IMG/VR virus record: IMGVR_UViG_3300000517_000001
DNA: 64,000 nt
Direction: 5' to 3' (one strand)
Origin: a virus
Taxonomy: Duplodnaviria > Heunggongvirae > Uroviricota > Caudoviricetes
Numbering within the stretch: the first letter of the stretch is position 1; each line of letters begins with the position of its first letter. The position numbers and the translations under genes are program-made. The notes beneath the pieces were generated by a model that made no database searches, was not told the origin of the DNA, and saw only the letters and a list, made by a program, of their open reading frames with translations. Positions 2,680 through 42,051 of the stretch are shown piece by piece.

Positions 2680-2927
2680 TAGTAATGTCCCCCATTAACT
2701 TGAGTATTTTCGTTTTCTATTATTGTTGTTGTTTCAAATGTAGAGGTATTACCATTATATATTAGAACACCACCGTCAGCAGCGTTAGATGTGTCGACAT
2801 CAAGAATATCACCTAGTCTAATATTGTTTGTGTTAACACGATATTCAGTAACCTGCAGTTGATTCTGCACGTTAACTCTACCTTTAATATTATGGCCTTG
2901 AGGAGTTACTTTAGCAGTGATAGACAT
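2679..2927 (-). CDS. hypothetical fibre-associated protein (82 aa)
   Basis: ATG/stop-coupled to flanking fibre genes. GDILDVDTSNAADGGVLIYNGNTSTFE resembles fibre N-terminal adaptor motifs. Confidence 0.4.
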   Translation of the reverse strand: MSITAKVTPQGHNIKGRVNVQNQLQVTEYRVNTNNIRLGDILDVDTSNAADGGVLIYNGNTSTFETTTIIENENTQVNGGHY

Positions 2928-3262
2928 TATGACCTCGTAATAATACCAGGCGTTACAGTCACAATACCCTCAACTACACGTGTTACTAATCCTCCACTTG
3001 ATGTTATTTCTACATCATAGAGATATCTTCCAGGGTCAAGTTGGTTAGTTACACTATTAGACATTATTAGTGTAATTTGTCCTAAGCTATCATTATCAGA
3101 TGTTGTAAAACTATAAGCAGTCTCAGATGCGTAGCTTTTTCGCATCTGAGCTGAAGAAGTGTAACCAGTCAAATCAAATGCATCACCATTTGCATCAACC
3201 ACATCAATGACTGCACTAAAATCAGTACCCTGATCTATTACAAGATTTGCTTTAATAGCCAT
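2927..3262 (-). CDS. hypothetical structural protein (111 aa)
   Basis: ORF coupled to downstream genes. Beta-rich composition. Lies 25 nt downstream of a late promoter. Confidence 0.4.
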   Translation of the reverse strand: MAIKANLVIDQGTDFSAVIDVVDANGDAFDLTGYTSSAQMRKSYASETAYSFTTSDNDSLGQITLIMSNSVTNQLDPGRYLYDVEITSSGGLVTRVVEGIVTVTPGIITRS

Positions 3263-3314: not shown

Positions 3315-4157
3315 TTAATTAGACTTAAGCTCGCTTAAAAATGCATTTACATCATTCATCATATAATTAAATTGTTCTTTGGAAGACATTTTAGACAAAT
3401 TATAGTTATAACCTAGAAAAGTTTGATTCCAATTTTCATCCTCATATGTCTTGCTTAAATATTTTCTTACTTTTTCTTTGTCAACATTTACACCGAGAAT
3501 AGACAAATAATTTCCCGGTTTAGAAAAAGAATTGTTAAAATAATCAGACATACTTGGAATATTGTTTGAAGAAGGATCACCGGTAATAATTGCCTTGAAA
3601 TGTGGTTTCGCTCTTCCGGTTAAAACAAAGTCTACTTCACCAATTTCAAGAGCAGCAATTGCATCTCCAGAGCTTGCATAAGGAACATACTTAGAATTGC
3701 TTTCTAAGCCTTCTAACATTTTATTCATTTGAATTTTTTGCAAAAGACCAGAGGCACTGGAAGCTCCAATTTTAGCTTCACCATTCATAAATTTGTCTAA
3801 GTTATTTTCTGGATTAGATTCTAATGCAAAAACACTATAATATGCACTTGAATATATTGAAACAAAATTTTCTTCGTTTATTACGTGACACGTCTTATCA
3901 CTTGTAACAGCAGATCCTAAAATGTCCCACATAAAAATGGTAGGTTCTTTTGTAGATTCCATAATTTTAACTGCTTCTGTACAATTGCTTACCTTTAAAA
4001 CCTCTGTAAAAACTTCTGGAAATTCGGTGTTTAAATAGCTTGCGGTTTTGTGGGCCATTCCGCCAACTGAATATGGGTTAATAACTTTAATTCCATCAGC
4101 ATAAGCTACACTCATAGAAAAAATTAAAGAAAAAAACATACAAAGAACTTTTTTCAT
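3315..4157 (-). CDS. TctC/Bug-family periplasmic substrate-binding protein
   Basis: N-terminal signal peptide (MKKVLCMFFSLIFSMSVAYA). INPYSVGGMAHKTASYL matches the TctC (P[FY]..GG..D..AR) N-terminal motif, and YASSGDAIAALEIGEVDFVL matches the second conserved TctC block. Very AT-rich. Confidence 0.5.
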   Translation of the reverse strand: MKKVLCMFFSLIFSMSVAYADGIKVINPYSVGGMAHKTASYLNTEFPEVFTEVLKVSNCTEAVKIMESTKEPTIFMWDILGSAVTSDKTCHVINEENFVSIYSSAYYSVFALESNPENNLDKFMNGEAKIGASSASGLLQKIQMNKMLEGLESNSKYVPYASSGDAIAALEIGEVDFVLTGRAKPHFKAIITGDPSSNNIPSMSDYFNNSFSKPGNYLSILGVNVDKEKVRKYLSKTYEDENWNQTFLGYNYNLSKMSSKEQFNYMMNDVNAFLSELKSN

Positions 4158-4169
4158 TTACTTACTCCT

Positions 4170-5495
4170 TCATATTAAATATATTAAAGTTAAAAGATTA
4201 GATTGTATTTGATCATGCATCAAAAAAGAAAACACCAAAGGAAGAGTGTCAAACTTATTTATACATAGCCCAAATATAAGCATAACAAAAAGACACTGCA
4301 CATAAAATACAGGTTGATAAAAAGTATATCCAACAAATATAGTAATACCAAATAATAAAAGTAAAATAAAAATATACACATACTGATAGTTTACTTTTGT
4401 GATATGTCTTACCCAATTTACATATTTCCCGGCAAAAAATAATCCTATTATAGCACTAATAATGTAAGCTATTCCCAATTGTGTAAACATTGCTTGAAAA
4501 AAATCTGTTGTTAATGATAATCCTTGCATAGAAAATATATCATAAATAAAAACTTGACTGGCTGTTATTGGTAAACCAAGTAAAAGTAGTGGAAGAAGTT
4601 GAGAAAAAACTCCTGCATTATTTGCTGTTTCTGCAGAAAGGAGACATGAGATATCTCCTTCTTTATATGTTTTATTTCTTTTGCCTATAAATTTTTCGAG
4701 GTAGTATGCCATTGTTGTTCCGACATAAAAAGTTAATCCAGGAATAAATGAAGAAAAATATCCTAAAGTTAACCCTCTTGCTACTGTATATCGATATGTA
4801 ACTAGTTCTTTTATAGTTTCCAAATATCCATTTATAGATAACTTTACAAGCTCTATGTGTTGCTGTTTTTCAAATACCTTTTTAATAATATAAGGCATTA
4901 CATAAATTCCAAGAATTACAGTAATGGATGGTATACCAGAATAAAGATCAACAATACCAAATGTTAAAAAATGATTATCCTCCCACGAGTTATAACCGAC
5001 TTCAGCAAGACCATAACCTCCAAATACCATAAGTGTATTAGTCCATATTTTATTTTTTCCTACAATCATAAAAATAAACAAGGAAACAACTAAAAGAAAA
5101 GTCTTTACGTATGTACTAAAAAAAGGATAGAACATAAATGCAAAGTCAACAGTAACAATAGAAAAAAGTAAAGAAAAAATAGATCCTATAAAGCTACCTA
5201 TAGCTGCATACATAATAGCTTTACTGCCATCACCTTGTCTAAATAAAGTGTGAGCTTCGTGTATGGTAGGGATTGCAGTAGCTGATCCAGGAATACAAAA
5301 AAGAGTAGATGACACAGAACCGAAGTACTGACTAATGCTAACCACGACAACATATATCATGATAACATTTATGGGATCAATAACAACAAGAAGAGGATAC
5401 AACATAATAAGCACTGTAAATGCTGATATCCCTGGTATCATTCCCGCAATGATACCCATAAATGTTGCTATAGCAAATGTTAGAATTAATTCCAT
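4170..5495 (-). CDS. TctA-family (DUF112) transporter permease
   Basis: 441 aa with many predicted TM helices. Duplicated G.IPG(I/L) motifs (IAGMIPGISAF, SSFIPGLTFY) are typical of TctA large subunits. No TctB-like gene is seen. Confidence 0.5.
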   Translation of the reverse strand: MELILTFAIATFMGIIAGMIPGISAFTVLIMLYPLLVVIDPINVIMIYVVVVSISQYFGSVSSTLFCIPGSATAIPTIHEAHTLFRQGDGSKAIMYAAIGSFIGSIFSLLFSIVTVDFAFMFYPFFSTYVKTFLLVVSLFIFMIVGKNKIWTNTLMVFGGYGLAEVGYNSWEDNHFLTFGIVDLYSGIPSITVILGIYVMPYIIKKVFEKQQHIELVKLSINGYLETIKELVTYRYTVARGLTLGYFSSFIPGLTFYVGTTMAYYLEKFIGKRNKTYKEGDISCLLSAETANNAGVFSQLLPLLLLGLPITASQVFIYDIFSMQGLSLTTDFFQAMFTQLGIAYIISAIIGLFFAGKYVNWVRHITKVNYQYVYIFILLLLFGITIFVGYTFYQPVFYVQCLFVMLIFGLCINKFDTLPLVFSFLMHDQIQSNLLTLIYLI

Positions 5496-5502
5496 ATCAA
5501 TA

Positions 5503-6606
5503 TCAAATTTTTTGTATTAACCAATCAGGTACCTTTTTTATTTTTACAGTTTCACTAGATCTTAAAATCTGTTGATTTCCCATGCTGGCTTTAATATCAT
5601 CGATAATTCTTTTTATGCCAGGGTGTTCTAGTTTATAAAATGCTTTTTTTGTTTCATTATGTAAAGGGCTTCCCGGTTTATATGCTGCAGAATTCATTAA
5701 TGCATTTACAGCTTTATAACCCATATATTCATTTATTTGTTCATAAAAGGGACTATTGTATGTTTGCCACCCACCAAGTCTAACTTCGCCTTTATTGTGA
5801 ACAGCAGCTAAACGTTCAAGTATTTCTATTTTCAGCCATGCTAGCTTTATTTGAATTTCTGGAACATCATCGGTAATGAAAAAAAATACATCATCATAAG
5901 CATCTGTAGCTAACATTTTTGCTGAAACTATTTCATGGGATGGCATATACCATTCCCAATAATTATTTCGAATACCAATCATAGGCTTTTCAAAGCCATA
6001 TACGACTGCAGTCTTTTTTTTACTTGTGTCTATTCTAATATGATTATTTTTTTCTGTGTATAGCCTATACCAAGAAGATGTCATTGCTATGTCATAAAAT
6101 TTTTGTGGTTTAAACGTTTTAATGGTTTCTTCAAATTCTTTTGGTGTAGAAGACCATACGTAATCGTTTGAATCGACTTTGGGAGACATAACTTTATAAT
6201 TTAAGTCTTTAAATTGTTGACTGTATTTTTTTAATGAATGAATAACACCTTCATTCATTTTTTTACGACCATTATAAGAAAGCTGCTCTGCTGACACTGT
6301 ATCATACAAAATGATGTTTTTTATCTTACAACGTATAAAAGATTCTAAAGCAGTATGACTATCTGTCCCACCGCTATACATAAGAATTATTTGATCATAT
6401 TTTTCATTAAGAATTCTACTATGCAAATCCAAATAATAGTGTATTGGATATACAGGCTCTTTTTGCCAATTTGCATTTTGTATAAAATCATAGTTTAAAT
6501 GAAAAACAAGCGGCTCCTTTAATTTACATGCAACAGGAGCCGCTTCTATATCTGAATAGTATTTCTTACCTTGTACACTAAAATAAAATTTTAAACCACT
6601 AAACAT
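5503..6606 (-). CDS. PP-loop (N-type) ATP pyrophosphatase, family unclear
   Basis: SGGTDS PP-loop motif (ILMYSGGTDSHTAL) about 75 aa from the N-terminus. 367 aa. AT-rich. Confidence 0.55.
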   Translation of the reverse strand: MFSGLKFYFSVQGKKYYSDIEAAPVACKLKEPLVFHLNYDFIQNANWQKEPVYPIHYYLDLHSRILNEKYDQIILMYSGGTDSHTALESFIRCKIKNIILYDTVSAEQLSYNGRKKMNEGVIHSLKKYSQQFKDLNYKVMSPKVDSNDYVWSSTPKEFEETIKTFKPQKFYDIAMTSSWYRLYTEKNNHIRIDTSKKKTAVVYGFEKPMIGIRNNYWEWYMPSHEIVSAKMLATDAYDDVFFFITDDVPEIQIKLAWLKIEILERLAAVHNKGEVRLGGWQTYNSPFYEQINEYMGYKAVNALMNSAAYKPGSPLHNETKKAFYKLEHPGIKRIIDDIKASMGNQQILRSSETVKIKKVPDWLIQKI

Positions 6607-7189
6607 CTCTTACAATCATTAAATTTTCAGTTATCACTTCGTCAATAATATTTCCAGGATCTATTACATCTGTGACAACTAATTTTTCACCAAAATAATT
6701 TTGATAGAATGAAAGGGTGCTTTCACTAACTAAAGAAAAAATAAGTATATTTTTAAATCCATTTTCTAATGCTACTACTTGTGTCGAATAGTCCATTAGT
6801 TCTTTGCATATTTTAAAATTTTGGTAATCTTTATGCACTCTAATATATGTTATACTAAAACATTCGTTTTGGTTGATGTTGTTATCTATCATATAATTTT
6901 TTATTATATTACTGCTAGAAGATAAATTGATTCCTGGCGATGATGAAGAATCTAAAAAGAATGAGCATCCAACTAAAATATCATCGTCATACGCCGTTAC
7001 TAAATAGCTGTTTTCTCTAGTAAAATAATCATTTAATGTATTCACAGTAATTTCATAATTTAAATTATCTTCAACTGTTCTATTATAACCATATGAAGAA
7101 TTTAAAGTAAAATCGATTATTTCATTTATTTCCGTACTTTCAACATCTTTAAGCAATTTATGTGAATAATTGATCATTTTTATCTCCAA
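6599..7189 (-). CDS. GNAT-fold acyltransferase-like protein
   Basis: 196 aa. Central ILVGCSFF strand and ITYIRVHKDYQNFKICKELMDY...NYFGEKL resemble GNAT motifs A/B. Weak. Confidence 0.35.
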   Translation of the reverse strand: MEIKMINYSHKLLKDVESTEINEIIDFTLNSSYGYNRTVEDNLNYEITVNTLNDYFTRENSYLVTAYDDDILVGCSFFLDSSSSPGINLSSSSNIIKNYMIDNNINQNECFSITYIRVHKDYQNFKICKELMDYSTQVVALENGFKNILIFSLVSESTLSFYQNYFGEKLVVTDVIDPGNIIDEVITENLMIVRDV

Positions 7190-7668
7190 TTAGTGCTTCT
7201 AGATGTGGTTTTAGATGTTGTACGTGAAGTAGTTTTAGATGTTGTACGTGAAGTAGTTTTAGATGTTGTACGTGAAGTAGTTTTAGATGTTGTACGTGAA
7301 GTAGTAAAAAATGTGGTAAAAAACGTAGTATAAGGTTCACCTTCAACGGGCGTGAAGGTTGTACGTGATGTTGTACGTGAAGTAGTAAAAAATGTGGTAA
7401 AAAATGTGCTAAATGACGTCGTGTATGATGTGCTAAATGACGTCGTGTATGATGTGCTAAATGACGTCGTGTATGATGTACTAAATGATGTCGTCCACGT
7501 ATTTGTGGCATTATAAAAGTCAGAAAATGAAATTTCCCCGTTAGCAGGAATAGCCCCGCCAACTTGTGTAGGAGGGTTATAAAACTCTGAAATACTTGTA
7601 GGAACTGTGTCGTTAAACTCTGTGCCAATATCACCTAATGATATAGCTCCGTTACTTTGCAACGCCAT
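7180..7668 (-). CDS. Ser/Thr/Tyr-rich tandem-repeat protein (162 aa)
   Basis: Unique 60-aa N-terminus (MALQSNGAISLGDIGTEFNDTVPTSISEFYNPPTQVGG...) followed by (TTSFSTSY)x4 and (TTSRTTSK)x4 repeats. AGGA RBS 8 nt upstream. Boundaries interlock with neighbours (overlaps of 17 and 10 nt). Confidence 0.45.
   Translation of the reverse strand: MALQSNGAISLGDIGTEFNDTVPTSISEFYNPPTQVGGAIPANGEISFSDFYNATNTWTTSFSTSYTTSFSTSYTTSFSTSYTTSFSTFFTTFFTTSRTTSRTTFTPVEGEPYTTFFTTFFTTSRTTSKTTSRTTSKTTSRTTSKTTSRTTSKTTSRSTNWR
7199..7500. repeat. two arrays of 24-bp tandem direct repeats
   Basis: Unit tagatgttgtacgtgaagtagttt repeats about 4 times (7212-7307). Unit gtgctaaatgacgtcgtgtatgat repeats 3-4 times (7406-7499). 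aaaaaatgtggtaaaaaa is also duplicated. Confidence 0.85.
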
Positions 7669-8416
7669 CTATTTCGTCCTTGTATATGCATTTGCTTATT
7701 TTATTCCACCAACCAAAATGTCGATTCTTCATACAAGAATGACAATTTCCACACGCCTCTATCCTTTTATTTATATACTTAGGTTCGCGACAAGAAAATA
7801 TCAACTTTTTGTAATCATCTGGCATTTCATTATACATTTCTGCTAAATTATTAGCTTCAAACGCTGTTATGGTATCACATCTATTTCTTGTATAGGCCCT
7901 AACAAAATTACCTAAACATACCATATGTTCTTTAATATCTTTTGAAAGAGTAGAGTAATTTTGATTTCTATCAAATGCGTCTATAAAACAATCACCGGCA
8001 ACTATATGAGAAATTCCTTCAATATATGCATAGTTTAAAGACAATATTACACCTGTATACCAATCTCTTAAAAGAGGCATTTCATAAGTAGAACGGACTT
8101 CAGAAGTTATTAACTTAATATGTTTGCCTTGATTTCTTAAGTATTCTATTTGCCTTTCTACAGAAAATCTTTCCGTATCTGCTCTTTGAGATATACTATC
8201 ATACATAGAAATATGATGACATACGATATCGTCAGTGTATTGAGCATATTTCCATAACATATATGCGCTGTCTAATCCACCAGACACAAGTATTAATGAT
8301 TTCTTTCCAATCTTAGCATCCTCTAAAACTTGTTCAAAAGAAGGCCATCCTACATCAGAAGTTAGATTGTACATACTTATACCTATAGTCTTTTCTTTTT
8401 TCATGAATATACTCAA
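7652..8416 (-). CDS. QueC-family PP-loop ATPase (7-cyano-7-deazaguanine synthase-like)
   Basis: SLILVSGGLDSAYML...DDIVCHHISMYD parallels QueC VVVFSGGQDSTTCL...DEVHCVTFDYGQ. C-terminal Cys cluster ACGNCHSC matches the QueC zinc site GCGHCAAC. The true start may be an internal Met, since the ORF overlaps the upstream gene. Confidence 0.6.
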   Translation of the reverse strand: MSIFMKKEKTIGISMYNLTSDVGWPSFEQVLEDAKIGKKSLILVSGGLDSAYMLWKYAQYTDDIVCHHISMYDSISQRADTERFSVERQIEYLRNQGKHIKLITSEVRSTYEMPLLRDWYTGVILSLNYAYIEGISHIVAGDCFIDAFDRNQNYSTLSKDIKEHMVCLGNFVRAYTRNRCDTITAFEANNLAEMYNEMPDDYKKLIFSCREPKYINKRIEACGNCHSCMKNRHFGWWNKISKCIYKDEIDGVAK

Positions 8417-9251
8417 GATACTTTGAAATTCTTTCTCTCCAATCGTCTTGATACTTTGGATTTACTAGACCAGATCTATAATCATTAAACATTTTATTTA
8501 TAACATATTCTGGATTGCTGGTTTCAAAAAAATGCTTATTTACGTGGGAAAAAGATCCAAAAAATTTAGACTGAAATGTATCAATAGGATCAATTTTTTT
8601 TCCTAAGCATAAAGAATGAAAAGCTGTTTCACTCCAATGAGTTGTATAAACAATGCTTGCATCTTTTATATATTCGTACACATCACTTTCTTTATTAGCT
8701 ACGTTTGCATGCTTATGTATACTTTTTTGAAAAAAATCTGTCATATCCCTATCAACAAGAGGATGAGGTTTAAATATTGCAAGTTTTCCATAAGTATTGT
8801 ATATATGCTTAAGTTTATTAAAGCACATATTATCTAGCTTATTGTTACCTATTAGTACCACTACGGCTTCTATGTTTTTAACATGTTTGCCTGCTGTTTT
8901 ATACTTATTAACATTTTCCTTTTGAAGATTGTTTGCATAGATATTAAAAAAATCGACTGAAAAATTGTCATCGCCATATATTAGTGCCTCTTCAACCTGA
9001 ATGTGAGATAAATCAGGTTGAAGAGGATGCATCATAAAAAAGTCACTGTAATTTGTATAGTTAACCGAGTCAAAATAAGGATGTTGAAATGCACTTAAAT
9101 CATATGAAGCATTTGTTGGATATTTTTTCATTTCCTCTAAAAAAAATTTTTCAACTTCTCGAAGGTGTTCATACCTTTTAAAATTTACTTTTTCAATATA
9201 ATCTCCAAATCTAATGTTGCGCTCTTCATCACTAAACATAGTATTGTTCAT
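8355..9251 (-). CDS. hypothetical protein, possible GT-B-like transferase
   Basis: 298 aa. KPHPL and YTTHWSETAFHSLCLGKKI loosely resemble the nucleotide-sugar-binding region of GT-B / capsule-synthesis transferases. Weak. Confidence 0.3.
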   Translation of the reverse strand: MNNTMFSDEERNIRFGDYIEKVNFKRYEHLREVEKFFLEEMKKYPTNASYDLSAFQHPYFDSVNYTNYSDFFMMHPLQPDLSHIQVEEALIYGDDNFSVDFFNIYANNLQKENVNKYKTAGKHVKNIEAVVVLIGNNKLDNMCFNKLKHIYNTYGKLAIFKPHPLVDRDMTDFFQKSIHKHANVANKESDVYEYIKDASIVYTTHWSETAFHSLCLGKKIDPIDTFQSKFFGSFSHVNKHFFETSNPEYVINKMFNDYRSGLVNPKYQDDWRERISKYLEYIHEKRKDYRYKYVQSNF

Positions 9252-9267
9252 AATTTATTATTTCTCC

Positions 9268-12200
9268 TTAGCCTTTAGATTTTAATTGTTCAATTTCAGA
9301 TTTTAATTCTTTAATAGCTTCAATAAGAAGAGGTATAAGCTTTTCATACTTAACTGTTAAATAATCCTCTTCAACATGCTCTTCATAGCTAATTGGCGCT
9401 TTTGTTACAATTTCTGGTAAAATTGCTTGAACCTCTTGTGCACTGACACCTACTTGAAGTTCATTTGTATAGCCAAGATTTTGAGCAGTTTCATTTGGAG
9501 TGTAGTAATATCCATTAAGTGAATTTACTTTATTTAATGCATTATTTATTGTACCTTTAAAATCTTTCAGTCTTGCATCAGAATAGAAAGCTGTGATATC
9601 ACCAGTTGCACGAATTTCACCACCTGTGGGAGCAGCCGTACCTACACCAAGACCAACTGTTTGGAATGTACCAGTTGTAACATCATTTGCATCTGCACGT
9701 ACAAATTGAGTGCTGTTAAGACCATCAAGCAATTCAGAATCAGCAGCTTTCGCCGAAATCCCAAGGAATCTTGTGTCCAGATCTACTGTTCCAATAGAAG
9801 TGATGTGACCAAATCCATCAACAGTAATATCTTCTACTACTACTCCATTTCCAGCCCCGCCGTAGGATCCGCTTAATGTAGACGTATCAGAGTGCGAAAC
9901 TGTAACAGTTTCATTAGATGCCTGATTAAGAGTAAATACACCACTTCCGGTTAATCCAGAACCAGTTGCAATTGTAATAGATGCATCATTTGGAGTAGGA
10001 AGGTTACCTGAGTGGAATAGAGTTCTTTGTACACCACTGTTGTCTTCTACTGACCAATCATTCGCAGTATCATCCCACATAAGTGTTCTGTATACATTTG
10101 AATTATCATCATAGAAATTGATAATGGAATCACCACCACCATTTTGTCCTACTTGAACCAATCCATTAACTGTAAGATTTCCGGTAATGGTATCACCAGA
10201 TGCATTAACATATCTCGAATCAGATTCACTTGTAGTATAGAAATCAAGAGCTCTTGTTGTTGCAGCTGTTACGTGTCCAAATCCATCATAAGAAAGACTG
10301 CTAATAACATTCTTTCCAGATGTTGAAGTATCTGTAATTGACGAAGTGTCAGCATGTGCTAAAGTAATTGTCTCATTCGATGTTTGGTTGGTTGTAAAAT
10401 TGCCACCAGTAACAAGACCACTTCCTGCACTAATAGTAATTGTAGCATTGCCGATAGTAGGTGGATTAGTAATGTCATTATAATTAATGTCGCCAGTTAA
10501 GGTCCCGGCGCTTACAGTTCCTGTTGTAGTAAATCCACCTGCAGTAATTGTTCCGTCAGCATTTACGTTACCTGTACCGAGAATTTGGAAAACAGAATCA
10601 CTACTGTTTGGTGTATCGGTTATATCAACGGATGTTCCGGTAGCATTTGCTCTAAATTCAGCAATAACATCAATTGATTCACCATCACCTGCAACAATTA
10701 GTGCAGGAGTATTGGTTCCGTCTTCAATGTTTTTAACAATCTTTGCAGCTGCGCTTCCTGCAGTGGTTGATTGTAGAATCGTCGTATTAGCAAAAGTTTT
10801 AAAACCGCTAATTGTTTGATTAGTTGTTTGTCTTACATAACGAGTATCAAGATTTGTTGAACCAAGAGCTGTTATATGACCATATGTGTCAAGAGTAATG
10901 TCTTGAATTACATTACCATTTGAATTATTAACACTTGCTTGAGTAGACGTATCGGCATGTGAAACTGTCGCTGTTGCCCCAACACCTGATCCAGAAACGC
11001 TAATTCCTGCTCCCGCCGCAACTGTTTCAACATAATCCCCAGTAGTATCTGTGCCAAGTATAATAGATCCACTATTAAGATTTGCATTAATAGTTATATT
11101 TTGTGATCCATCAAAGGTTGCAGAGCCAGTTAATGCTCCTCCAAGTGTAATCGATCTAGCAAACTGAAGTTTTGAAGCAGTAGAAGCATTACCAGAAAGA
11201 CTTCCAATAAATGAACTTGCTACAAGGCTTTGAGAACCAAGTGTCCAACGATCCGCCGTTTCATCCCAAAGGAAGCTTACATTAGTAGATGTTCCTCGTT
11301 CTATTTCAAATCCAGCATTTTGTGAAGGTGTACCTGTTTCATCAGAATTTAAAAGAAGAATATTGTCGCCAATATTTACTTCATTAGTGTTAATAGTTGT
11401 AGTTGTACCTTCGACGAGAAGATTGCCAGATACAACAACATCTTCACTTACTGTAACACTGTTGAAAGTAACATCTGATGTGGTTGCAACTGCTTGACCA
11501 ATAGAAATTGTAGGTGTAGCACCTTCACCACTATTATTCGTAATTGTAACGCCAGTACCTTGTACTAAACTTTGAACATAGGCACCAGTTGTATCAGTAC
11601 CGAGAACAACAGAGTTTGGTTGAATTGCTGTTAAAATAGAAATTGAACCATTGGCTAAATCTGTAAGTGTAGCACTCGAAGAACCAACTACATCACCACT
11701 AAGGGCAACACTTATAGTTGGATCAGGTTTATTGGCTACATTGGTCCAATCGAGAGTACCAATAAAGTTGCCGGCATACACATTATCCCATTGAGCAGCA
11801 CTACTACCAAGATCATAGGTAAGAGTTGCTTGTGGTAAAATATTAGAAATAACAGTGGCACCTGGCACAAGTTCGAACGTATCAGTAACCGAAAATACCT
11901 GAACATCAGATTCTGCAAGAGATAGCGTTACATTACTTGAAAAAGATGTATTTCCAAGAACAGTTAAATCACCTTGTACAACTAAATCAGATTGATTTAG
12001 TTGATCACCAACAACAGTTAAAGTGCTGTTAAGAGTTGCGTCTGAGTTTACAATAAGGTCATCAGCACTATTTACACCTATTGTAAATGTATCAATATTT
12101 GCAGTAAATGTGTTAGCGGTGAATGTAGAATTAGCACCCACAATAAGATCAGTTGTAGCTACGTTTGCATAAAGACCAGCAAATTTTGCATTACCATTTA

Positions 12201-13962
12201 CAGTAACTCTTCCGCTATGTGTTGTATTAGCAGAAACGTTAAGTGTATTTGTTGTAATACTTGTTCCAGTACCTGTTATATTTGTATTTGTAGAATTGAT
12301 TACAGTGTTTGTTGATGTAATGCTTACATTACCAATAGCTGTTAATGGTCCTGTAATACTAGTCGCACCAGTAATATCTGTTGCGGAGTTAATATCAACT
12401 GTTGCCCCATTAAATGTTGTATTTGATCCAACAGTCATAGAAGGACCAGTAATAGTCAAGGTACTATTAAGATCCACTGTAGATCCGGTAACACTGGTAT
12501 TAGCATTAACTACAAAGGAAGTACCATCAATTGTAGTACTTGCATTTACATCTAATAGTGAACCAGTTACAGATGCAGATCCAATAATATCTGTATTAGA
12601 TCCGGTGATTGTAGTATTAGCAGCAATTTCGAGTGTAGATCCGGTAACAGTTGTATTAGCTGCAACATCAAAATCAGTACCGGTAAACGATGCAGAACCA
12701 ACTACTGTAGTTATGCCATTAATATTTACATTAGATGCATTTACAGTTGTATTAGCATTAATTATTGCATTTGTGCCAGATGCTGTAACATCACCATTTA
12801 AGCCAATTGTAGAACCAATAATTGATGTATTGGCATTAACAGTAAGTGATGTGCCATCAACAGTTGTTGCATCTGAATTAATATCTAATAGTGAACCAGT
12901 TACAGATGCAGATCCAATAATATCAGTATTTGTTCCAGTAATTGTTGTATTACCAGTAAGAGCAATTGTAGATCCGTCAATTGTCGTATTTGCGTTAACA
13001 TCAAGATTTGTGCCGGTAACTACGGTTGTTCCTGTTACAGTAGTGTGACCCACAATGTTAACATTCGAACCAGTAATTGTCGTATTTGCATTAACATCTA
13101 CTGTTGTGCCGTTAACAGTTGTGTTTGCATTAATGGTAGAAGTTGTGCCACTAACAGTTGTATTACCAGCAACATCGATCGCAGTACTATTAACATCAAC
13201 AAAAGCAACATTTGCAATTGCTGTATTTGATATTAATGTAAGATCAGAAAGAGTGGCAACAACAGCATCCGAAGTTACATCAATAGCTGTAGAATTTACA
13301 GAAACGGTGTTTGAATTAATAGTAATGTCTTGAGCCGTATGGGTAAATGTTGTACCATTAAATGTCGCAGTAGTGTAATCTACATCTATTGCTGTTACGT
13401 TAGCTGTAAGTGCAGCTGCAGTGATTGTAGAATTAGCAGTAATATCAAGATCAGTTGTGTGGATGTTAAGAATAGCGCCATCAACTGTTGAATTAGAAGA
13501 TAGATTAAATGTATTTGCTGTAATATCAAATAATGCTGATGTTGTAGTAATATTACCAAATGTAGCTGCAAAGTTTTTAGTTGCCCCGCCATCCATTGTA
13601 ACGTTAGAGGAAATTACTACATTATTTGCGTCGACGTTAAGTAAATTAGTATTGGCTTGTACATCAATAAGATTAGACTGCTGAAATACGGTATTTGTTG
13701 TGACTACAAGATTTGCCGGTGTGCTTACCGTTCCGCCACGAAGTGCATCAGTTGCAACAAGAGTATTAGCAGAAGAAAAGCCTTCAACATGAGTATTTCC
13801 TGTTACTGCAGCACCATTTGTAGTATTTGGCTGTGCAACAGGCCCAGCTGTAAGAACAACGGTTCCCATGTCATAAACAAGTTGATTGGTTTTGTTAATC
13901 CAACCGCTAAAAGAATCTGTGGTAATTTCTACATTAGCACCAAGATATGTTGTTTTTGCCAT
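9268..13962 (-). CDS. long tail-fibre protein with C-terminal intramolecular-chaperone (S74-like) domain
   Basis: 1564 aa. Long beta-helix-like N.TTV.G(S/T) repeat run. C-terminus FYSDARLKDF...coiled coil matches the self-cleaving chaperone domain Ser/Lys motif (SD.RLK). Confidence 0.8.
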   Translation of the reverse strand: MAKTTYLGANVEITTDSFSGWINKTNQLVYDMGTVVLTAGPVAQPNTTNGAAVTGNTHVEGFSSANTLVATDALRGGTVSTPANLVVTTNTVFQQSNLIDVQANTNLLNVDANNVVISSNVTMDGGATKNFAATFGNITTTSALFDITANTFNLSSNSTVDGAILNIHTTDLDITANSTITAAALTANVTAIDVDYTTATFNGTTFTHTAQDITINSNTVSVNSTAIDVTSDAVVATLSDLTLISNTAIANVAFVDVNSTAIDVAGNTTVSGTTSTINANTTVNGTTVDVNANTTITGSNVNIVGHTTVTGTTVVTGTNLDVNANTTIDGSTIALTGNTTITGTNTDIIGSASVTGSLLDINSDATTVDGTSLTVNANTSIIGSTIGLNGDVTASGTNAIINANTTVNASNVNINGITTVVGSASFTGTDFDVAANTTVTGSTLEIAANTTITGSNTDIIGSASVTGSLLDVNASTTIDGTSFVVNANTSVTGSTVDLNSTLTITGPSMTVGSNTTFNGATVDINSATDITGATSITGPLTAIGNVSITSTNTVINSTNTNITGTGTSITTNTLNVSANTTHSGRVTVNGNAKFAGLYANVATTDLIVGANSTFTANTFTANIDTFTIGVNSADDLIVNSDATLNSTLTVVGDQLNQSDLVVQGDLTVLGNTSFSSNVTLSLAESDVQVFSVTDTFELVPGATVISNILPQATLTYDLGSSAAQWDNVYAGNFIGTLDWTNVANKPDPTISVALSGDVVGSSSATLTDLANGSISILTAIQPNSVVLGTDTTGAYVQSLVQGTGVTITNNSGEGATPTISIGQAVATTSDVTFNSVTVSEDVVVSGNLLVEGTTTTINTNEVNIGDNILLLNSDETGTPSQNAGFEIERGTSTNVSFLWDETADRWTLGSQSLVASSFIGSLSGNASTASKLQFARSITLGGALTGSATFDGSQNITINANLNSGSIILGTDTTGDYVETVAAGAGISVSGSGVGATATVSHADTSTQASVNNSNGNVIQDITLDTYGHITALGSTNLDTRYVRQTTNQTISGFKTFANTTILQSTTAGSAAAKIVKNIEDGTNTPALIVAGDGESIDVIAEFRANATGTSVDITDTPNSSDSVFQILGTGNVNADGTITAGGFTTTGTVSAGTLTGDINYNDITNPPTIGNATITISAGSGLVTGGNFTTNQTSNETITLAHADTSSITDTSTSGKNVISSLSYDGFGHVTAATTRALDFYTTSESDSRYVNASGDTITGNLTVNGLVQVGQNGGGDSIINFYDDNSNVYRTLMWDDTANDWSVEDNSGVQRTLFHSGNLPTPNDASITIATGSGLTGSGVFTLNQASNETVTVSHSDTSTLSGSYGGAGNGVVVEDITVDGFGHITSIGTVDLDTRFLGISAKAADSELLDGLNSTQFVRADANDVTTGTFQTVGLGVGTAAPTGGEIRATGDITAFYSDARLKDFKGTINNALNKVNSLNGYYYTPNETAQNLGYTNELQVGVSAQEVQAILPEIVTKAPISYEEHVEEDYLTVKYEKLIPLLIEAIKELKSEIEQLKSKG

Positions 13963-14175: not shown

Positions 14176-17100
14176 TTATGTTAATGCTATAGATCTTATG
14201 TTTTTAATTCGCGGCACATTTTTATGACTTGTTGAAAGCATAACAATCTTAATAGCAAAAGACTTGTAATTATCGTATATTGTTCCATCTGGAGAAATGT
14301 ATCTAATTACATCATTGTTATCACTATTAAGTGCTGCTCCACCTCCTGCTACAAAATCACCACTTGGTTGTGAAGGAATATAAAATTCAAATTCCCTATA
14401 GTCAAATCTATCTGATTCGGTTGAAAACAAATTAGTTTCATTTTTTAGAAGCAATTCTGTCCATTCAATAGTATTGAAGTCACGAGGATCAACTAGATTT
14501 TTAAATCTAATGTATACTTTTATGTCAGTGGCCGGCGGTCTATATGCAGTCATATATAGACGAAGATCATCTGCATCAAACCCATCTCCTAAAATAATAC
14601 GCTTACTTATATATTTACTTTCTGCAGGACCATTTTCTGTCCCATCTAGCTCAGTTACCGAACCATCATCAACAATATTATTGATTTGATATCCATATGC
14701 CATAATTGAAGATATAGTATGATCAACAAATGGAGATGCATCTTTTGCAGTAAACGGTGAAGTGTTTTCAAGGTCAATATTAATGCTTAAAGATTTTCCT
14801 GACCCATCAACAATCTCATTAGATCTACTTTTAATAATAGTTGGATATTTTCTCAAGTAGTTGTTACTATTTGGAGACATATTAAAAGGTAATCCATCAG
14901 CATAAAGAGTTTCAGTATTTTCATCAATAAGTCTATCTGCTGAAATATTATAGTTTGTGTAATCAAATGAAGTCACATAGAAATTTGTTTGAATATAACT
15001 AACTTTAAAATTATCAACGCTAACTATATCTGCAGTTGCTCCACTAGATTCACCCATAAGCATGGTGTTAGCTTCAAAATAGTTTGCAGCAGTTATAGTT
15101 GTATTGGAAGTATCTAAATAGTTATACGTTCCAGATCTTGCGTTTGAGTTATCGATATATATTTGTGATGGTGTATTTCTATCATAATACGTTACAGTAC
15201 CAGATACTGTTTTAAAGAAAGTAGTATTTGTATTAGCATATTTAGGAGTTTCTTTTACAATAATTTCTGTATTAGAAACAACTTGATCAACTGTAAGTAC
15301 ATCAATAATAGTCGAATTAGCGTAATAAGCAAACTTATCATTGTTATTGAATACTGAAAGACCAGTACCGGTAATAGTTTTGCTATTAGTGCTAACTGAA
15401 ACATTTCCATCAACATTTGCATTAACGACAAACATTTCTTCACCAACAATAAAGTCACCAGAAATATTATCTAACGTAAAGAATTCAGTATTTTTATTAC
15501 TTAATTTCATTGCACCATTATCAGCAAATTCAGCTTTATAAAGCGTAAATTTAATATTTTCATCCTGATAAGGAGTCCAGGCACTATCATTTGTAGATGT
15601 AAATAATGTACCGTCATGCGCATCTTGTGTTACAGCTGTTCCACTAATAGTATCACTTTCGCCGGATCGTGCAATCCAAATTCTATAATCTGGATCATTT
15701 GCATCAGGTTTTACGACAAAACAATACTCCACTTCAGCTTTAAGAGTAACTGGAGCTTTAAACGTAAATGTAGTTGCAACTGAGCCATCGGCTGATACGT
15801 TTACTTCATTGGAATTTAAATGTACTTTCGAAAATGGTACAGTTCTACTAGTAGGGAATCCATTTTCTGTCTCACGAATCTCAAATGTGACACCTCGCGT
15901 CGGAGATTTTTGATTAAAATAGACATCAGCCTTTGTTAACATTACTACAGTATCATCAGTATGATTTAACTTAACAGTAAATGTTTGTGAAATAGGATCA
16001 TCACCGCCACCGCCGTCGCCAGGTTCGAACCGCGCCTGTTCTTGTATGCCAGATGTCCTAGTTGGGGCTGCCACATTCGGCACAGGTTGAACCGGTGGTG
16101 GTGGTGGAACTGGAACAGATTGTCTTACAGTATTAACAACAGTTCTCGTACTTGTATTTGTTCTACTAGAACTAGCAATATTAAATTCAGGTGTACGTGT
16201 AGTAACATTGATTCCACGTTTATCTACTTCAAAGTTAAATCCACGATATGTTATACTCGTAGAAGAAGAAAACGCTTCTTCTGATGTAAGATCATCTACA
16301 TCAATAATTTTTAAAACTCTATCACCAACATAAAATGTTTCTTCTGGAATTCTAAAAATTGCAAAAATATTACCACTTGCATCAGTTGTGATAGGAGTCC
16401 CATATGGACCAGACAATGTCATATCTACGATATTGCTATTCGTGAGTTCTCCTGGAGCAACAAATTCATTAATGTCTTGTTGGTCAAAGTAGAAATAATG
16501 ACGAGTATTTGGCTTTAGTCCTGCGGCAAATATTCTTATAGGTCTTGCACGTAAGAAAGGCTGAAATCTAAAGTCAGTAATAAAATTACCAACTTCTTGA
16601 CGTGTGCTATTGCCTTCCTCTACTATTAGCTCATCATTACGTATTGTTTGACTTGTTCTAGTTGTTTGTGAATTAGTCGTAACAATTTGATTGCCAACCC
16701 TTTGAGAAGTAGAGCTGGCTCCTATTGTAGATGTTCTTGTACTAACCACACGGCTTTGCACAAGAGGAACAAACTGTGAAAGTCTATTAGTAAATTCTGT
16801 AAATGGTGTTGTAAGATCTACATCTATATTTAATGCCGGCGCCTGATTTGTATCATATGCACCATCATACTCAGGAAATATTTGAGCTTCGCCATTAAAT
16901 TTATAAAAATCTGTAGTACAGCTTCTAAAGCTTGTGCTATAAACTTGATCAATAAATGGATCTTCAGCAATAATTTCTAAGGTTGCAGCCTCCCCATGAT
17001 TAGTCACATTAGACCAAGATTCTGTAGAATATGGTACCATATCTAAAGCATGAAGCTTAAATTTTGGCGTAATTTCTTTTACAACTGGATCGATGCCTGC

Positions 17101-41454: not shown

Positions 41455-41824
41455 GTTAAGTGAGCCCGTTCTGTTGCCCGGTGGAGCTCATACCGCGTAG
41501 ACTCAAGCTGCGAGTGCTACAGGTTCTGCGTTAATGTTTGCAGTTATTAAGATGCGACTATTACGCGTTCGCCTCCGATAGTCTCCACGTTCCCTTCCGC
41601 ATACGTCGATCCCAATTCACCCCCATCAAAGATACACTTTAAGCTTCAGAGTGTCGGACTCGAACCGACATACCCTTCTCTGATATTCAGAAACACAGAA
41701 CGTTACAATGTTCCCTTAGTTGGCCAACTAGCTTATAAAGGTTGCGGCGCCTTTAAGTGTATCCGTGGTGGAGGTGCGGGGTTTCGAACCCCGGTCCGTC
41801 CTACGTCCAGTCAGTTTCACCGAC
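41455..41824 (-). ncRNA. ssrA: circularly permuted (two-piece) tmRNA gene
   Basis: On the minus strand the order is: acceptor piece, intervening segment, coding piece. The acceptor piece ends ...CGGGG-TTCGAAA-CCCCG-CACCTCC-A-CCA (canonical T-arm, 7-nt 3' acceptor strand, discriminator, CCA; plus 41765-41792). About 140 nt downstream lies GGGGGTG-AATTGGGATCGACG (plus 41624-41604), a perfect partner for CACCTCC followed by the tmRNA D-analog consensus (cf. GGGGCUGAUUCUGGAUUCGACGGG). Then comes a tag reading frame. ORF-free. Confidence 0.55.
41503..41541 (-). other. tmRNA tag reading frame ANINAEPVALAA-stop
   Basis: GCA AAC ATT AAC GCA GAA CCT GTA GCA CTC GCA GCT TGA on the minus strand. Typical AN...ALAA degradation tag. 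Resume-region AATAGTCGCA-like sequence just upstream. Confidence 0.5.
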
Positions 41825-42051
41825 TACAATATATTTATACCATAAAAACTCTTTAATGTCAACAAGATAAACACGCAACCAAGTATACCCATAAAAATAT
41901 GTTTTGCATTTTCAATATCTATACCAAACGATGTAAGAACAGCAACAGAAAAAACAGTTAGAATATAACTTGTAAGAATTGATAATGGGATATTAACCGT
42001 GATCATAGCGACGTAGTTTCTCTTCGCGCCCTTCTCTTTGACCATAGCCAA
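41824..42051 (-). CDS. small membrane protein (75 aa, 2 TM), holin-like
   Basis: Two hydrophobic helices. Charged N-terminus. Confidence 0.4.
   Translation of the reverse strand: MAMVKEKGAKRNYVAMITVNIPLSILTSYILTVFSVAVLTSFGIDIENAKHIFMGILGCVFILLTLKSFYGINIL
41831..41838 (-). promoter_or_regulatory. T4-type late promoter TATAAATA upstream of the tmRNA locus
   Basis: Minus-strand TATAAATA (plus-strand tatttata) about 7 nt before the start of the structured RNA region. Confidence 0.4.

What the first reader, a model, noticed from the sequence alone, without database searches (positions are those of the whole stretch)
7180..7668. Protein built from two arrays of exact 24-bp tandem repeats encoding (TTSFSTSY)n and (TTSRTTSK)n
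The reading frame with a non-repetitive 60-aa N-terminus, an RBS and interlocking gene boundaries runs through two perfect 24-bp tandem repeat arrays. Because the unit length is a multiple of 3, gain or loss of repeat units keeps the frame. This is the architecture of a contingency or length-variable locus.

The product is a hydroxyl-rich (Ser/Thr/Tyr) low-complexity tail, an obvious candidate substrate for O-glycosylation, O-acylation or other side-chain chemistry by the neighbouring enzymes. Alternatively it is a mucin-like flexible decoration of the fibre.
Basis: seen in the sequence. Interest (0 to 1): 0.6.

Follow-up and report, generated by a model that had tools for sequence, protein, structure and literature searches.

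The report
Threonine-repeat phage tail protein, enzyme partner
A small gene in the tail-fibre region of a marine T4-like phage encodes a real protein whose tail is two threonine-rich repeat arrays; the arrays change copy number between near-identical phages and are almost always encoded next to a sugar-transferase-like enzyme found so far only in phage sequences, which suggests an undescribed, widespread way of building and probably sugar-coating phage fibres.

Summary
ORF 7180-7668 (-) is a conserved 162-aa gene with two 24-bp tandem arrays, the strongest tandem repeats in the window.

In two assemblies 99.6% identical to each other and to the window here, the gene has 162 or 154 aa. The only difference is one (TTSFSTSY) unit, so copy number really varies.

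The first ~55 aa are not a leader. They form a widespread phage N-terminal module (at least 244 IMG/VR hits) fused to very different distal parts, including GP38-like glycine-rich adhesins, and often encoded directly after Peptidase_S74 tail fibres.

The tail is period-4 (T-T-S-X). An aromatic-X array and a basic-X array fold onto each other antiparallel: 11 aromatic-basic pairs, centre exactly mid-tail, reached by 1 of 500 shuffles.

Best reading: a length-polymorphic, fibre-anchored beta-ribbon that F298 O-glycosylates. Glycosylation and virion location are inferred, not shown.

The parts
7180..7668 (-). Gene for the 162-aa Thr-repeat ('TTSX') protein (stop at 7180-7182)
   Evidence: ORF. 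Homologues P0001-P0013. phrog_30374 at E 1e-8. 26 synonymous against 9-10 non-synonymous changes. Identical gene in L101 and a one-unit-shorter gene in L102.
7504..7668 (-). N-terminal module, residues 1-55 (SGAISLGDIGTEF ... ISEFY ... NGEISFSDFY): putative anchor to the fibre
   Evidence: Alignments A1 and A2. At least 244 IMG/VR relatives with unrelated C-terminal parts. 399 cluster representatives at E<=1e-3; all 150 listed match from residue 1. No Pfam or PDB match.
7351..7503 (-). Array 1, residues 56-106: T-T-S-X tetrads with X mostly F/Y/W (contains the 24-bp array 7404-7494, TTSFSTSY)
   Evidence: TRF. Codon layout. Site of the one-unit deletion in L102.
7330..7350 (-). Central turn PVEGEPY, residues 107-113; in longer relatives this position holds a ~100-aa domain
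   Evidence: Alignment A1. The best antiparallel centre falls at tail position 54.5 of 110. The central domain of P0008 matches the insert of the RHph_Y68 adhesin at E 0.003.
7183..7329 (-). Array 2, residues 114-162: tetrads with X = F, then alternating R/K, ending NWR (contains the 24-bp array 7208-7305, TTSRTTSK)
   Evidence: TRF. Codon layout. Pairing diagram.
8355..9251 (-). F298: 298-aa glycosyltransferase-like partner (phrog_26179), GT-B-like fold, invariant NKY, KPHP and SE motifs plus near-invariant VYT-H
7652..8416 (-). QueC-family PP-loop ATPase (SGGLDS, CxxCxxC); accessory, present in 4-5 of the lineages examined (probable start at 8404, as called in L101)
   Evidence: Pfam QueC weak hit. 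phrog_1550. Profile against PDB: QueC 2pg3 at E 2e-4, Cap9. Alignment A4.
6599..7189 (-). GNAT acetyltransferase (probable start ATG at 7177); accessory, also in L095
   Evidence: Pfam Acetyltransf_1. Gene call in L101.
5503..6606 (-). 367-aa protein with an SGGTDSH PP-loop motif; function unknown; travels with TctA and the 280-aa protein
   Evidence: Alignment A5. No Pfam, NCBIfam or PDB match. Also found in L009 and L094.
4170..5495 (-). TctA-family membrane protein
   Evidence: Pfam TctA at 2.5e-64.
3315..4157 (-). 280-aa protein, function unknown, conserved with TctA and the 367-aa protein
   Evidence: BLASTP and HMM matches in L009 and L094.
9268..13962 (-). 1564-aa tail fibre with C-terminal Peptidase_S74 intramolecular chaperone; the likely carrier of the TTSX protein
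   Evidence: Pfam PF13884. PHROG tail-fibre families. An S74 gene lies directly upstream of 41 of 98 genes with the N-terminal module.
2927..3262 (-). 111-aa tail-fibre-assembly-like protein closing the module
   Evidence: phrog_1084 and phrog_3304. Homologue in L005.

Best explanation
The gene encodes a small accessory protein of the tail-fibre module in a marine T4-like phage.

1. Anchor. Its first ~55 residues are a widespread phage N-terminal module. By analogy with gp38-type adhesins, this module probably docks the protein onto the Peptidase_S74 fibre encoded just upstream (inferred).

2. Ribbon. The rest is two arrays of T-T-S-X tetrads, one with aromatic X and one with Arg/Lys X, joined by a PVEGEP turn. 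They most likely pair antiparallel into a long two-faced beta-ribbon of about 12 tetrads per strand, roughly 16 nm. One face would carry an aromatic/cationic zipper and the other only Thr/Ser hydroxyls (inferred from sequence statistics).

3. Length change. Slippage of the 24-bp units changes the ribbon length in frame, and this does occur between near-identical phages (shown).

4. Modification. The Thr/Ser-rich arrays are the partner, and most likely the O-glycosylation substrate, of the co-encoded 298-aa enzyme F298. F298 has a KpsC/WbbB-like fold and a CMP-binding KxHP motif, so it probably uses a CMP-activated acidic sugar such as the host's CMP-Kdo. The association is shown; the chemistry is inferred.

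5. Tailoring. The QueC-like PP-loop enzyme, the GNAT, the second PP-loop protein, TctA and the 280-aa protein are variable accessories that may tailor the glycan (speculative).
For: Real, selected gene.

Copy-number polymorphism of exactly one unit in stretches 99.6% identical.

N-terminal module:
- Shared with GP38-like glycine-rich adhesins and other distal domains.
- An S74 fibre gene lies directly upstream of 41 of 98 such genes. It is annotated this way in Rhizobium phage RHph_Y68 and phiM9.

Antiparallel complementarity:
- Window protein: 11 aromatic-basic pairs and 1 like pair, centre at 54.5 of 110, 1 of 500 shuffles as good.
- P0007 1/500, P0012 0/500, Vibrio phage 6E35.1a 2/500. In these members the centre lies near the middle of the tail.
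- Folding the window tail in half gives 30 Ser/Thr-Ser/Thr pairs plus 11 aromatic-basic pairs out of 55.
- P0007 shows mirror-image blocks, including matching 'ST' insertions.

Beta-strand signature: 91% of 6955 spacings between bulky residues are even, in 67 Ser/Thr-rich ORFs from the F298-selected loci.

F298:
- Invariant KPHP matches the (K/R)XHP CMP-binding motif described in PMC12887879.

Association:
- Every TTSX lineage found through the protein carries F298.
- All loci found through F298 that had DNA on both sides carry a Thr-rich repeat ORF beside it.
- In 80 IMG/VR loci chosen by F298 alone, 56 have a period-4 score >=5 and 76 have >=4. Three of the four failures have under 120 bp of upstream DNA.
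- In 82 control loci, 0 ORFs score >=5.
- The two genes are often translationally coupled.
Against: - No experimental datum shows the protein in virions or shows any modification.
- AlphaFold gives only pLDDT 40 for the repeat protein. It draws two long strands, but that is not evidence.
- In the window protein itself a parallel register scores almost as well (9 against 10), so hairpin, intermolecular sheet and solenoid cannot be separated. Eleven shorter or degenerate family members give no significant signal.
- The L102 variant removes two tetrads from one array only (10 against 12 tetrads). Equal array length is therefore not strictly required, or that variant is impaired or mis-assembled.
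- I could not find the QXXXD nucleophile motif of retaining Kdo transferases in F298. GxNK sits at the expected place. Sequence searches give nothing better than weak polysialyltransferase hits in 2 of 31 members. The donor could instead be another CMP- or CDP-activated group; TagF appears lower in the Foldseek list.
- In the window the gene is separated from the fibre gene by two genes.
- Co-occurrence does not prove an enzyme-substrate relation.
Confidence: 0.5

Rival explanations
1. The tail is an intrinsically disordered, mucin-like Ser/Thr linker or decoration. It may be glycosylated by F298 but has no defined hairpin. The aromatic and basic residues only tune solubility or enzyme recognition.
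For: 49% Ser/Thr over the whole protein. AlphaFold confidence of only 40. Copy number can change in one array alone. F298 partners include 800-1300-aa proteins with 60-65% Ser/Thr, which look mucin-like.
Against: Disorder predicts no parity rule, yet 91% of spacings between bulky residues are even. Disorder also predicts no mirror-image aromatic/basic complementarity centred on the middle of the tail, which is seen in several very divergent members.
Confidence: 0.2
2. The repeat protein and F298 work together but not as substrate and enzyme. For example, the Thr-rich protein could be an assembly scaffold or chaperone for the fibre, or a glycan-binding surface, while F298 modifies the fibre itself or a host envelope glycan.
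For: The position after a tail-fibre gene is also typical of fibre chaperones, such as T4 gp38 (own knowledge). A tail-fibre-assembly-like gene is nearby. All solved structural relatives of F298 act on glycolipid or polysaccharide acceptors, not proteins.
Against: F298 tracks the Thr-rich repeats themselves, whatever they are fused to: the N-terminal module, short S74 proteins, or giant repeat proteins. It does not track the fibre type or the N-terminal module. The pattern search found no F298 relative in 185,579 bacterial and archaeal genomes, so a host-glycan role has no cellular precedent.
Confidence: 0.15
3. A contingency locus in the strict sense: frequent reversible slippage of the 24-bp units generates a population of fibre lengths that changes host range or escapes host defences, and this variability is the selected function.
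For: The units are perfect or near-perfect at the DNA level. There is a one-unit difference between stretches 99.6% identical, and it is the only length difference between L101 and L102 in 11 kb. Tetrad numbers differ widely among close relatives. Contigs tend to break at this gene, for example in L093.
Against: Only one variant was seen among three genomes. No read-level heterogeneity could be examined. In-frame units cannot switch expression on or off. Across homologues the best antiparallel centre lies close to the middle of the tail, which suggests selection on length rather than free drift. Assembly collapse cannot be excluded, although the arrays are shorter than typical reads (own knowledge).
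Confidence: 0.12
4. A ribosomally synthesised peptide precursor: a 55-60-aa leader plus a repetitive core, processed by the neighbouring PP-loop and GNAT enzymes.
For: The layout looks leader-like, and two PP-loop enzymes and a GNAT lie alongside. QueC-like enzymes can act on proteins in other systems; there is a Cap9 hit.
Against: The 'leader' is the N-terminus of hundreds of 170-680-aa phage proteins found beside tail-fibre genes. The PP-loop and GNAT genes are absent from most TTSX/F298 loci. No known RiPP maturase family was detected.
Confidence: 0.02
5. The repeats are non-coding DNA repeats and the ORF is an artefact.
For: Repeats without stop codons leave several frames open.
Against: The N-terminal module is under purifying selection. 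Protein-level homologues use different codons and different units. The gene boundaries are tightly coupled to neighbours.
Confidence: 0.01

Closest known systems
T2/S16-type gp38 tail-fibre adhesins (Pfam PF05268)
   Same: A small protein encoded after the distal fibre gene. A conserved N-terminal attachment part is followed by repeat arrays that flank variable tip segments. Proteins carrying this same N-terminal module include glycine-rich members with weak GP38 hits (RHph_Y68 'tail fiber adhesin', E 8e-5). Their central insert matches the central domain of long TTSX proteins.
   Different: The window protein has 4% Gly and no GP38 or Gly_rich hit. T-T-S-X arrays replace the polyglycine-II motifs. 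The N-terminal module has no detectable similarity to any solved structure. The carrier fibre ends in a Peptidase_S74 chaperone rather than being gp37-like.
Phage-encoded virion glycosylation in mycobacteriophages (Freeman et al. 2023, as cited in PMC10877033)
   Same: Phage glycosyltransferases encoded near structural genes that modify virion proteins.
   Different: There the targets are the capsid and tail tube. Here the enzyme is a distinct KpsC-like family with a CMP-type KxHP motif. The target would be dedicated Thr-rich repeat proteins in phages of Gram-negative, mostly marine, hosts. Nothing here has been shown biochemically.
Serine-rich-repeat glycoprotein adhesins of Gram-positive bacteria (GspB/Fap1 with GtfA/GtfB) (own knowledge; GtfA/B and Asp1 appear as weak fold matches)
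   Same: Long Ser/Thr repeat regions of variable length, O-glycosylated in the cytoplasm by a dedicated, adjacently encoded GT-B enzyme, forming a fibre-like adhesin stalk.
   Different: The repeat chemistry is unrelated (SASESASTSASV-type, own knowledge, against T-T-S-aromatic/basic). Those use UDP-sugar GT4-type enzymes, export through accessory Sec and cell-wall anchoring. There is no homology.
Retaining beta-Kdo transferases KpsC (GT107), WbbB (GT99) and KrkA (GT140)
   Different: No QXXXD nucleophile motif was recognisable. Sequence identity is 12-16%. F298 is smaller (298 aa), has no hit to any sequence family, and was found only in phage and viral sequences here. The acceptor would be a protein rather than a glycolipid or glycan.
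Simple-sequence contingency loci
   Same: Perfect tandem repeats inside a surface-structure gene, with copy number differing between near-identical genomes.
   Different: The 24-bp unit keeps the frame, so the outcome is length change rather than phase variation. The rate and reversibility are unknown.

Membership tests
PHROG phrog_30374 / phage proteins with the 'SGxISLxDIxxEF ... SGxISFSDFYG' N-terminal module | Significant match to the family profile and to the conserved N-terminal ~55 residues | tested here: met
   phrog_30374 at E 1.1e-8 over residues 4-160. At least 244 tblastn-confirmed IMG/VR relatives and 37 cultured-phage records. All 150 listed representative hits align from residue 1.
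GP38 tail-fibre adhesin (PF05268) | Match to the GP38 profile, with glycine-rich motifs forming the polyglycine-II sandwich | tested here: not met
   No Pfam hit at E<=0.01. 4% Gly. Only relatives with glycine-rich tails give weak GP38 hits.
GP38 tail-fibre adhesin (PF05268) | Encoded directly downstream of the distal tail-fibre gene and bound to its tip | tested here: inconclusive
   Directly downstream of an S74 fibre gene for 41 of 98 family members, including TTSX loci L001-L008. In the window two genes intervene. Binding is not testable here.
Simple-sequence contingency locus | Tandem repeat within a coding region, with copy number differing between otherwise near-identical genomes | tested here: met
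   L102 lacks one 24-bp unit. The rest of the gene is identical and the 11.1-kb flanks are 99.6% identical.
Simple-sequence contingency locus | High-frequency reversible switching within a population, with a phenotypic consequence | not testable with these tools
   No read-level data. An exact 27-mer search in the viral and metagenome collections found nothing further.
Retaining beta-Kdo glycosyltransferases (GT99/GT107/GT140), tested for the partner F298 | Modified GT-B fold similar to KpsC/WbbB/KrkA | tested here: met
Retaining beta-Kdo glycosyltransferases (GT99/GT107/GT140), tested for the partner F298 | (K/R)XHP CMP-binding motif | tested here: met
   K161-P162-H163-P164 is invariant in 31 sequences. 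The motif is defined in PMC12887879.
Retaining beta-Kdo glycosyltransferases (GT99/GT107/GT140), tested for the partner F298 | QXXXD motif with the nucleophilic Asp and the carboxylate-binding Gln, about 35 residues before HP | tested here: not met
   The corresponding strand-loop (residues 129-140) reads VVL(P/I)GxNKL, with G135 and N137 conserved and no conserved Gln or Asp. This was judged from sequence and secondary structure only, without a residue-level superposition.
Retaining beta-Kdo glycosyltransferases (GT99/GT107/GT140), tested for the partner F298 | Uses CMP-beta-Kdo as donor | not testable with these tools
   Needs a biochemical assay.
RiPP precursor peptide | Leader peptide recognised by a co-encoded maturase of a known RiPP class | tested here: not met
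   The N-terminal part is shared with large structural proteins. No RiPP enzyme family was found in the neighbours. The PP-loop and GNAT genes are dispensable across loci.

The most novel reading that the evidence does not exclude
Thr-rich aromatic/basic repeat proteins plus F298 form a previously unrecognised, widespread two-gene system found so far only in phage sequences. Phages would build fibres or ribbons from two-faced 'threonine-ladder' beta-strands zipped by aromatic-cation pairs. They would then coat the hydroxyl face with an acidic CMP-activated sugar such as Kdo or a nonulosonic acid. This would be the first viral system of ulosonic-acid protein O-glycosylation. Repeat slippage would set fibre length, which varies in natural populations. 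The window protein would be the minimal version, fused to a fibre-docking module.
Probability: 0.3. Interest if true: 0.85.

Novelty: new variant of a known kind. Interest (0 to 1): 0.68.

Why it matters
If correct, this adds a new building principle for phage receptor-binding appendages: repeat-encoded beta-ribbons of adjustable length with a dedicated glycosyltransferase. It would also extend virion protein glycosylation from mycobacteriophages to abundant marine myo-, sipho-, podo- and crAss-like phages. There are 216 F298 genes in IMG/VR alone, some next to 1300-aa proteins that are 65% Ser/Thr.

It assigns a testable role to two 'unknown function' PHROG families. It also supplies cultured systems for experiments: Caulobacter phage Lullwater gp41/gp42 and Vibrio phage 6E35.1a. 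It would point to a CMP-sugar transferase family with a protein acceptor, which would be of interest for glyco-engineering.

It also documents natural in-frame repeat-number polymorphism in a phage tail gene.

Tried and rejected
- Megablast of 10 kb around the gene against cultured phages: no match.
- Pfam and NCBIfam on the repeat protein: nothing meaningful, only a spurious 'serine-rich protein' hit far below cut-off.
- Sequence searches of F298, the QueC-like protein and the 367-aa protein against PDB: no useful single-sequence hits. The F298 and 367-aa profiles also gave none.
- AlphaFold of the repeat protein: pLDDT 40, so it was not used for fold search.
- The afdb50 fold library was unavailable.
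- N-terminal module profile against PDB: no relative.
- A simple Ser/Thr-content window did not separate F298 loci from other loci. It was replaced by a period-4 detector.
- Exact look-up of the window's F298 in the contig index failed. An exact 27-mer of the gene was absent from the viral and metagenome collections. The near-identical genomes were finally reached through the 367-aa protein.
- F298 in 185,579 bacterial and archaeal genomes: no relative found. This was a pattern-based search, so it is not exhaustive.
- Literature searches for Thr-rich phage fibre repeats, and for the phiM9 homologue in virion proteomics, gave nothing relevant. The Freeman 2023 paper itself is not held.
- The RiPP-leader and non-coding-repeat readings were considered and rejected (see rival explanations).
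Full report
**1. The observation**

The - strand ORF 7180-7668 encodes 162 aa. Tandem Repeats Finder reports two 24-bp arrays. One is at 7208-7305 (4.1 copies, 100% matches, score 196). The other is at 7404-7494 (3.8 copies, 97%, score 168). No other independent repeat in the 64-kb window scores above 51.

Read on the coding strand, the arrays spell (TTSFSTSY)n near the N-terminus and (TTSRTTSK)n near the C-terminus. A short duplicated block, TFFTTFFTTSR, lies on each side of a central PVEGEPY segment.

An AAGGA lies 9-13 nt before the ATG. The start overlaps the upstream gene's end by 17 nt, and the next gene starts 2 nt after the stop.

The gene is under purifying selection. In the first 58 codons there are 26 synonymous against 9-10 non-synonymous codon differences to the orthologues in L009 and L093. 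The additional ORFs in other frames of the repeats are most simply by-products of stop-free repeats (my reading).

**2. Copy number varies**

The neighbouring 367-aa protein occurs with an identical sequence on other contigs. Two of these were retrieved: L101 (116-kb contig, sample ERZ508546) and L102 (150.7-kb contig, sample ERZ27241896). Both are 99.6-99.7% identical to the window over 11.1 kb.

The repeat gene has 162 aa in the window and in L101, and 154 aa in L102. The only difference is the loss of one 24-bp TTSFSTSY unit. Every other base of the gene is identical, and this is the only length difference between L101 and L102 in 11.1 kb.

More distant relatives, with N-termini 85-93% identical, have 10-12 tetrads instead of 25. 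The contig of the closest F298 relative ends inside the array (L093).

**3. Setting**

The window is from a T4-like myovirus. It carries baseplate wedge and hub proteins and RnlA. Its nearest cultured relatives are Sinorhizobium phages phiM12 and phiN3, at 46% identity for the gp6-like protein.

The gene order on the - strand is:
- 1915-aa structural protein (phrog_358; 42% identical to the structural protein preceding the S74 fibre in L005)
- 1564-aa fibre with a Peptidase_S74 chaperone
- F298 (298 aa)
- QueC-like PP-loop ATPase
- the repeat protein
- GNAT
- 367-aa PP-loop-motif protein
- TctA
- 280-aa protein
- tail-fibre-assembly-like protein
- 740-aa protein with tail-fibre and head-decoration matches

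**4. The N-terminal 55 residues are a structural module, not a leader**

A profile of the N-terminus finds at least 244 confirmed relatives in IMG/VR and 37 cultured-phage records. An exhaustive search with the whole protein found 399 cluster representatives at E<=1e-3, and all 150 listed match from residue 1.

The C-terminal parts of these relatives are unrelated to one another. They include:
- glycine-rich domains, with a Pfam Gly_rich_2 hit and weak GP38 adhesin hits
- repeats that look propeller-like
- domains that look Ig-like
- a ~100-aa 'W.WNG ... YTYYRG' domain

(the last three labels are from reading the sequences)

Of 98 such genes in the loci held, 41 lie directly downstream of a Peptidase_S74 fibre gene. 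These include Rhizobium phage RHph_Y68, where the gene is annotated 'putative tail fiber adhesin', and phiM9 gp135. This is the usual layout of a receptor-binding accessory protein: a conserved anchor with an exchangeable distal part.

The long TTSX proteins (P0007, P0008, P0010, P0012) carry the 'WNG' domain between their two arrays. In the rhizobiophage adhesins that position lies between the glycine-rich arrays (P0008 against RHph_Y68, E 0.003). The T-T-S-X arrays therefore take the place of the polyglycine motifs of GP38-like adhesins. The window protein is a minimal form in which the tip domain is reduced to PVEGEPY.

**5. Architecture of the tail**

Every fourth residue (X) is aromatic in array 1 and Arg/Lys in array 2. 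Folding the 110-residue tail exactly in half gives 11 aromatic-basic pairs, one aromatic-aromatic pair and 30 Ser/Thr-Ser/Thr pairs out of 55.

I then scanned all fold-back centres, and shuffled the aromatic and basic residues among their own positions as a control. The results:
- Window protein: best centre at 54.5 of 110, with 1 of 500 shuffles as good.
- P0007: 79.5 of 153, 1/500.
- P0012: 103.5 of 201, 0/500.
- Vibrio phage 6E35.1a protein: 62 of 120, 12 pairs, 2/500.
- Five further members: 15-32 of 500.
- Eleven shorter or degenerate members: not significant.

P0007 is the most telling case. Its blocks run R-type, 'ST', Y-type, centre, K/R-type, 'ST', Y-type. That is a mirror arrangement in which basic residues always face aromatic ones.

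In the window protein a parallel register scores almost as well (9 against 10). Hairpin, intermolecular sheet and solenoid therefore cannot be told apart there.

Independently, I examined 67 distinct Ser/Thr-rich ORFs from the F298-selected loci. In these, 91% of 6955 spacings between successive bulky residues (F, Y, W, R, K, H) are even. This is the signature of beta-strands with all large side chains on one face and hydroxyls on the other. A disordered linker would show no such rule.

AlphaFold draws two long strands (61-95 and 116-150), but at pLDDT 40, so it is not evidence.

The L102 allele shortens only one array (10 against 12 tetrads), so exact balance is not obligatory.

**6. The partner enzyme**

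The 298-aa neighbour (phrog_26179) has no sequence-family assignment. A 31-sequence alignment shows invariant NKY, KPHP and SE motifs and a near-invariant VYT-H motif just before the SE pair.

Generic GT-B enzymes follow. Foldseek agrees. Among viral models it finds close uncharacterised homologues (TM 0.85, and 0.73 for Vibrio phage VH1_2019), followed by 'capsule polysaccharide biosynthesis' proteins.

The KPHP motif corresponds to the (K/R)XHP CMP-binding motif shared by sialyltransferases and Kdo transferases (PMC12887879). I could not find the QXXXD nucleophile motif of the retaining Kdo transferases. F298 should therefore not be filed in GT99/107/140. It works like a CMP- (or possibly CDP-) dependent transferase.

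**7. The association**

Loci found through the repeat protein:
- All carry F298 within two genes: L001-4 (siphovirus-like), L005-8, L009, and Vibrio phage 6E35.1a.

Loci found through F298:
- All carry a Thr-rich repeat ORF beside it. Some of these ORFs have the N-terminal module (L094, L095, L099).
- Others lack it: L097 (183 and 418 aa), L098 (98 aa plus a short S74 protein with a TTSX start), crAss-like L096 (544 aa), and Caulobacter phage Lullwater gp41 next to gp42.

Period-4 detector:
- It flags 12 of 3003 ORFs in the first 100 loci. All 12 are in F298 loci, and none is in the 82 control loci that share the N-terminal module but have other tails.
- In 80 further IMG/VR loci selected by F298 alone, 56 have a same-strand ORF scoring >=5 and 76 scoring >=4. 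Three of the four failures have under 120 bp of upstream DNA.
- Only 3 of the 80 have the N-terminal module, and 7 have an S74 gene.
- Many partners are 800-1300-aa proteins with 60-65% Ser/Thr.

The pattern search found no F298 relative in 185,579 bacterial and archaeal genomes.

So F298 follows the Thr-rich repeats themselves. The window protein is a fusion of two separately mobile modules: a fibre anchor and an F298-associated repeat.

**8. Accessory genes**

The QueC-like protein keeps SGGLDS and the CxxCxxC cluster. As a profile it hits QueC (E 2e-4) and Cap9. It occurs in the window/L093 lineage, L005-8, L095, one IMG/VR locus, and probably the Vibrio phage. GNAT also recurs in L095. The 367-aa PP-loop-motif protein, TctA and the 280-aa protein travel together in the window, L009 and L094.

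Their presence varies from locus to locus. I regard them as optional tailoring functions, for example amidation or acetylation of an acidic sugar. That is speculation.

**9. Verdict**

The responsible enzyme is now identified. The 'leader peptide' idea is rejected, and the flexible 'mucin-like' reading is disfavoured.

The most likely mechanism is a fibre-anchored, length-adjustable beta-ribbon that F298 O-glycosylates with a CMP-activated sugar. Copy-number variation, family membership, the sequence statistics and the gene association are shown computationally. Docking to the fibre, the hairpin itself, glycosylation and the donor are inferred.

I found no description of this module in the literature searched.

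Noticed in passing
window 41459-41866 (-): The phage carries an alphaproteobacterial-type two-piece (permuted) tmRNA. Rfam gives RF01849 at 79 bits and RF04321 at 94 bits, and ARAGORN reads the tag peptide ANINAEPVALAA. This fits an alphaproteobacterial host; the nearest cultured relatives are Sinorhizobium phages phiM12 and phiN3.
   Followed up: partly
window 4170-5495 (-), with 5503-6606 and 3315-4157: A full-length TctA tricarboxylate-transporter homologue (Pfam 2.5e-64) sits inside the tail-fibre module. It is conserved together with a 367-aa SGGTDSH PP-loop-motif protein and a 280-aa unknown protein in L009 and L094. Its role is unexplained.
   Followed up: partly
L110 2-3895, L145 2-3946, L128 1497-3941, L096 5335-6969: These loci encode giant phage proteins (540-1314 aa) that are 60-65% Ser/Thr. 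They are built almost entirely of TS(R/K/H)STTTT(F/Y/W)N-like units and each is followed, directly or after one or two short genes, by an F298 homologue. They include one in a crAss-like contig.
   Followed up: partly
L118 1525-2502: This ORF lies about 1.5 kb upstream of an F298 gene. It has a Thr-rich N-terminal region, then a glycine run, then what reads like a Hint/intein-type autoprocessing domain (...GGGGGGFRCVVQGT ... THN). This suggests self-cleavage or ligation of a Thr-rich segment.
   Followed up: no
L100 (Caulobacter phage Lullwater NC_047860) 5321-6843: In this cultured T7-like phage, gp41 (a Thr-rich period-4 protein without the N-terminal module) and gp42 (an F298 homologue, 23% identity, E 2e-7) follow the tail-fibre gene gp40 directly. 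This gives a tractable system for experiments.
   Followed up: partly
L092 (Vibrio phage 6E35.1a MW824377) 6001-8925: The TTSX homologue is annotated 'putative cell wall mannoprotein'. It lies away from tail-fibre genes but still sits with an F298 homologue and a gene annotated queC. That queC may therefore be mis-assigned to queuosine or DNA-modification chemistry.
   Followed up: partly
window 7158-7634 (-), 7193-7333 (+), 7352-7516 (+): Long ORFs in other frames and on the other strand run across the repeats. They look like stop-free by-products of the repeat units and could mislead gene callers. In L095 the real gene was not called at all.
   Followed up: yes
window 14176-19923 (-): A 1915-aa structural protein (phrog_358, function unknown) lies upstream of the S74 fibre. 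It is 42% identical to the 728-aa contig-end fragment of the protein that precedes the S74 fibre in L005. A large VrlC-like protein occupies the same relative position in phiM9, but its homology was not tested.
   Followed up: no
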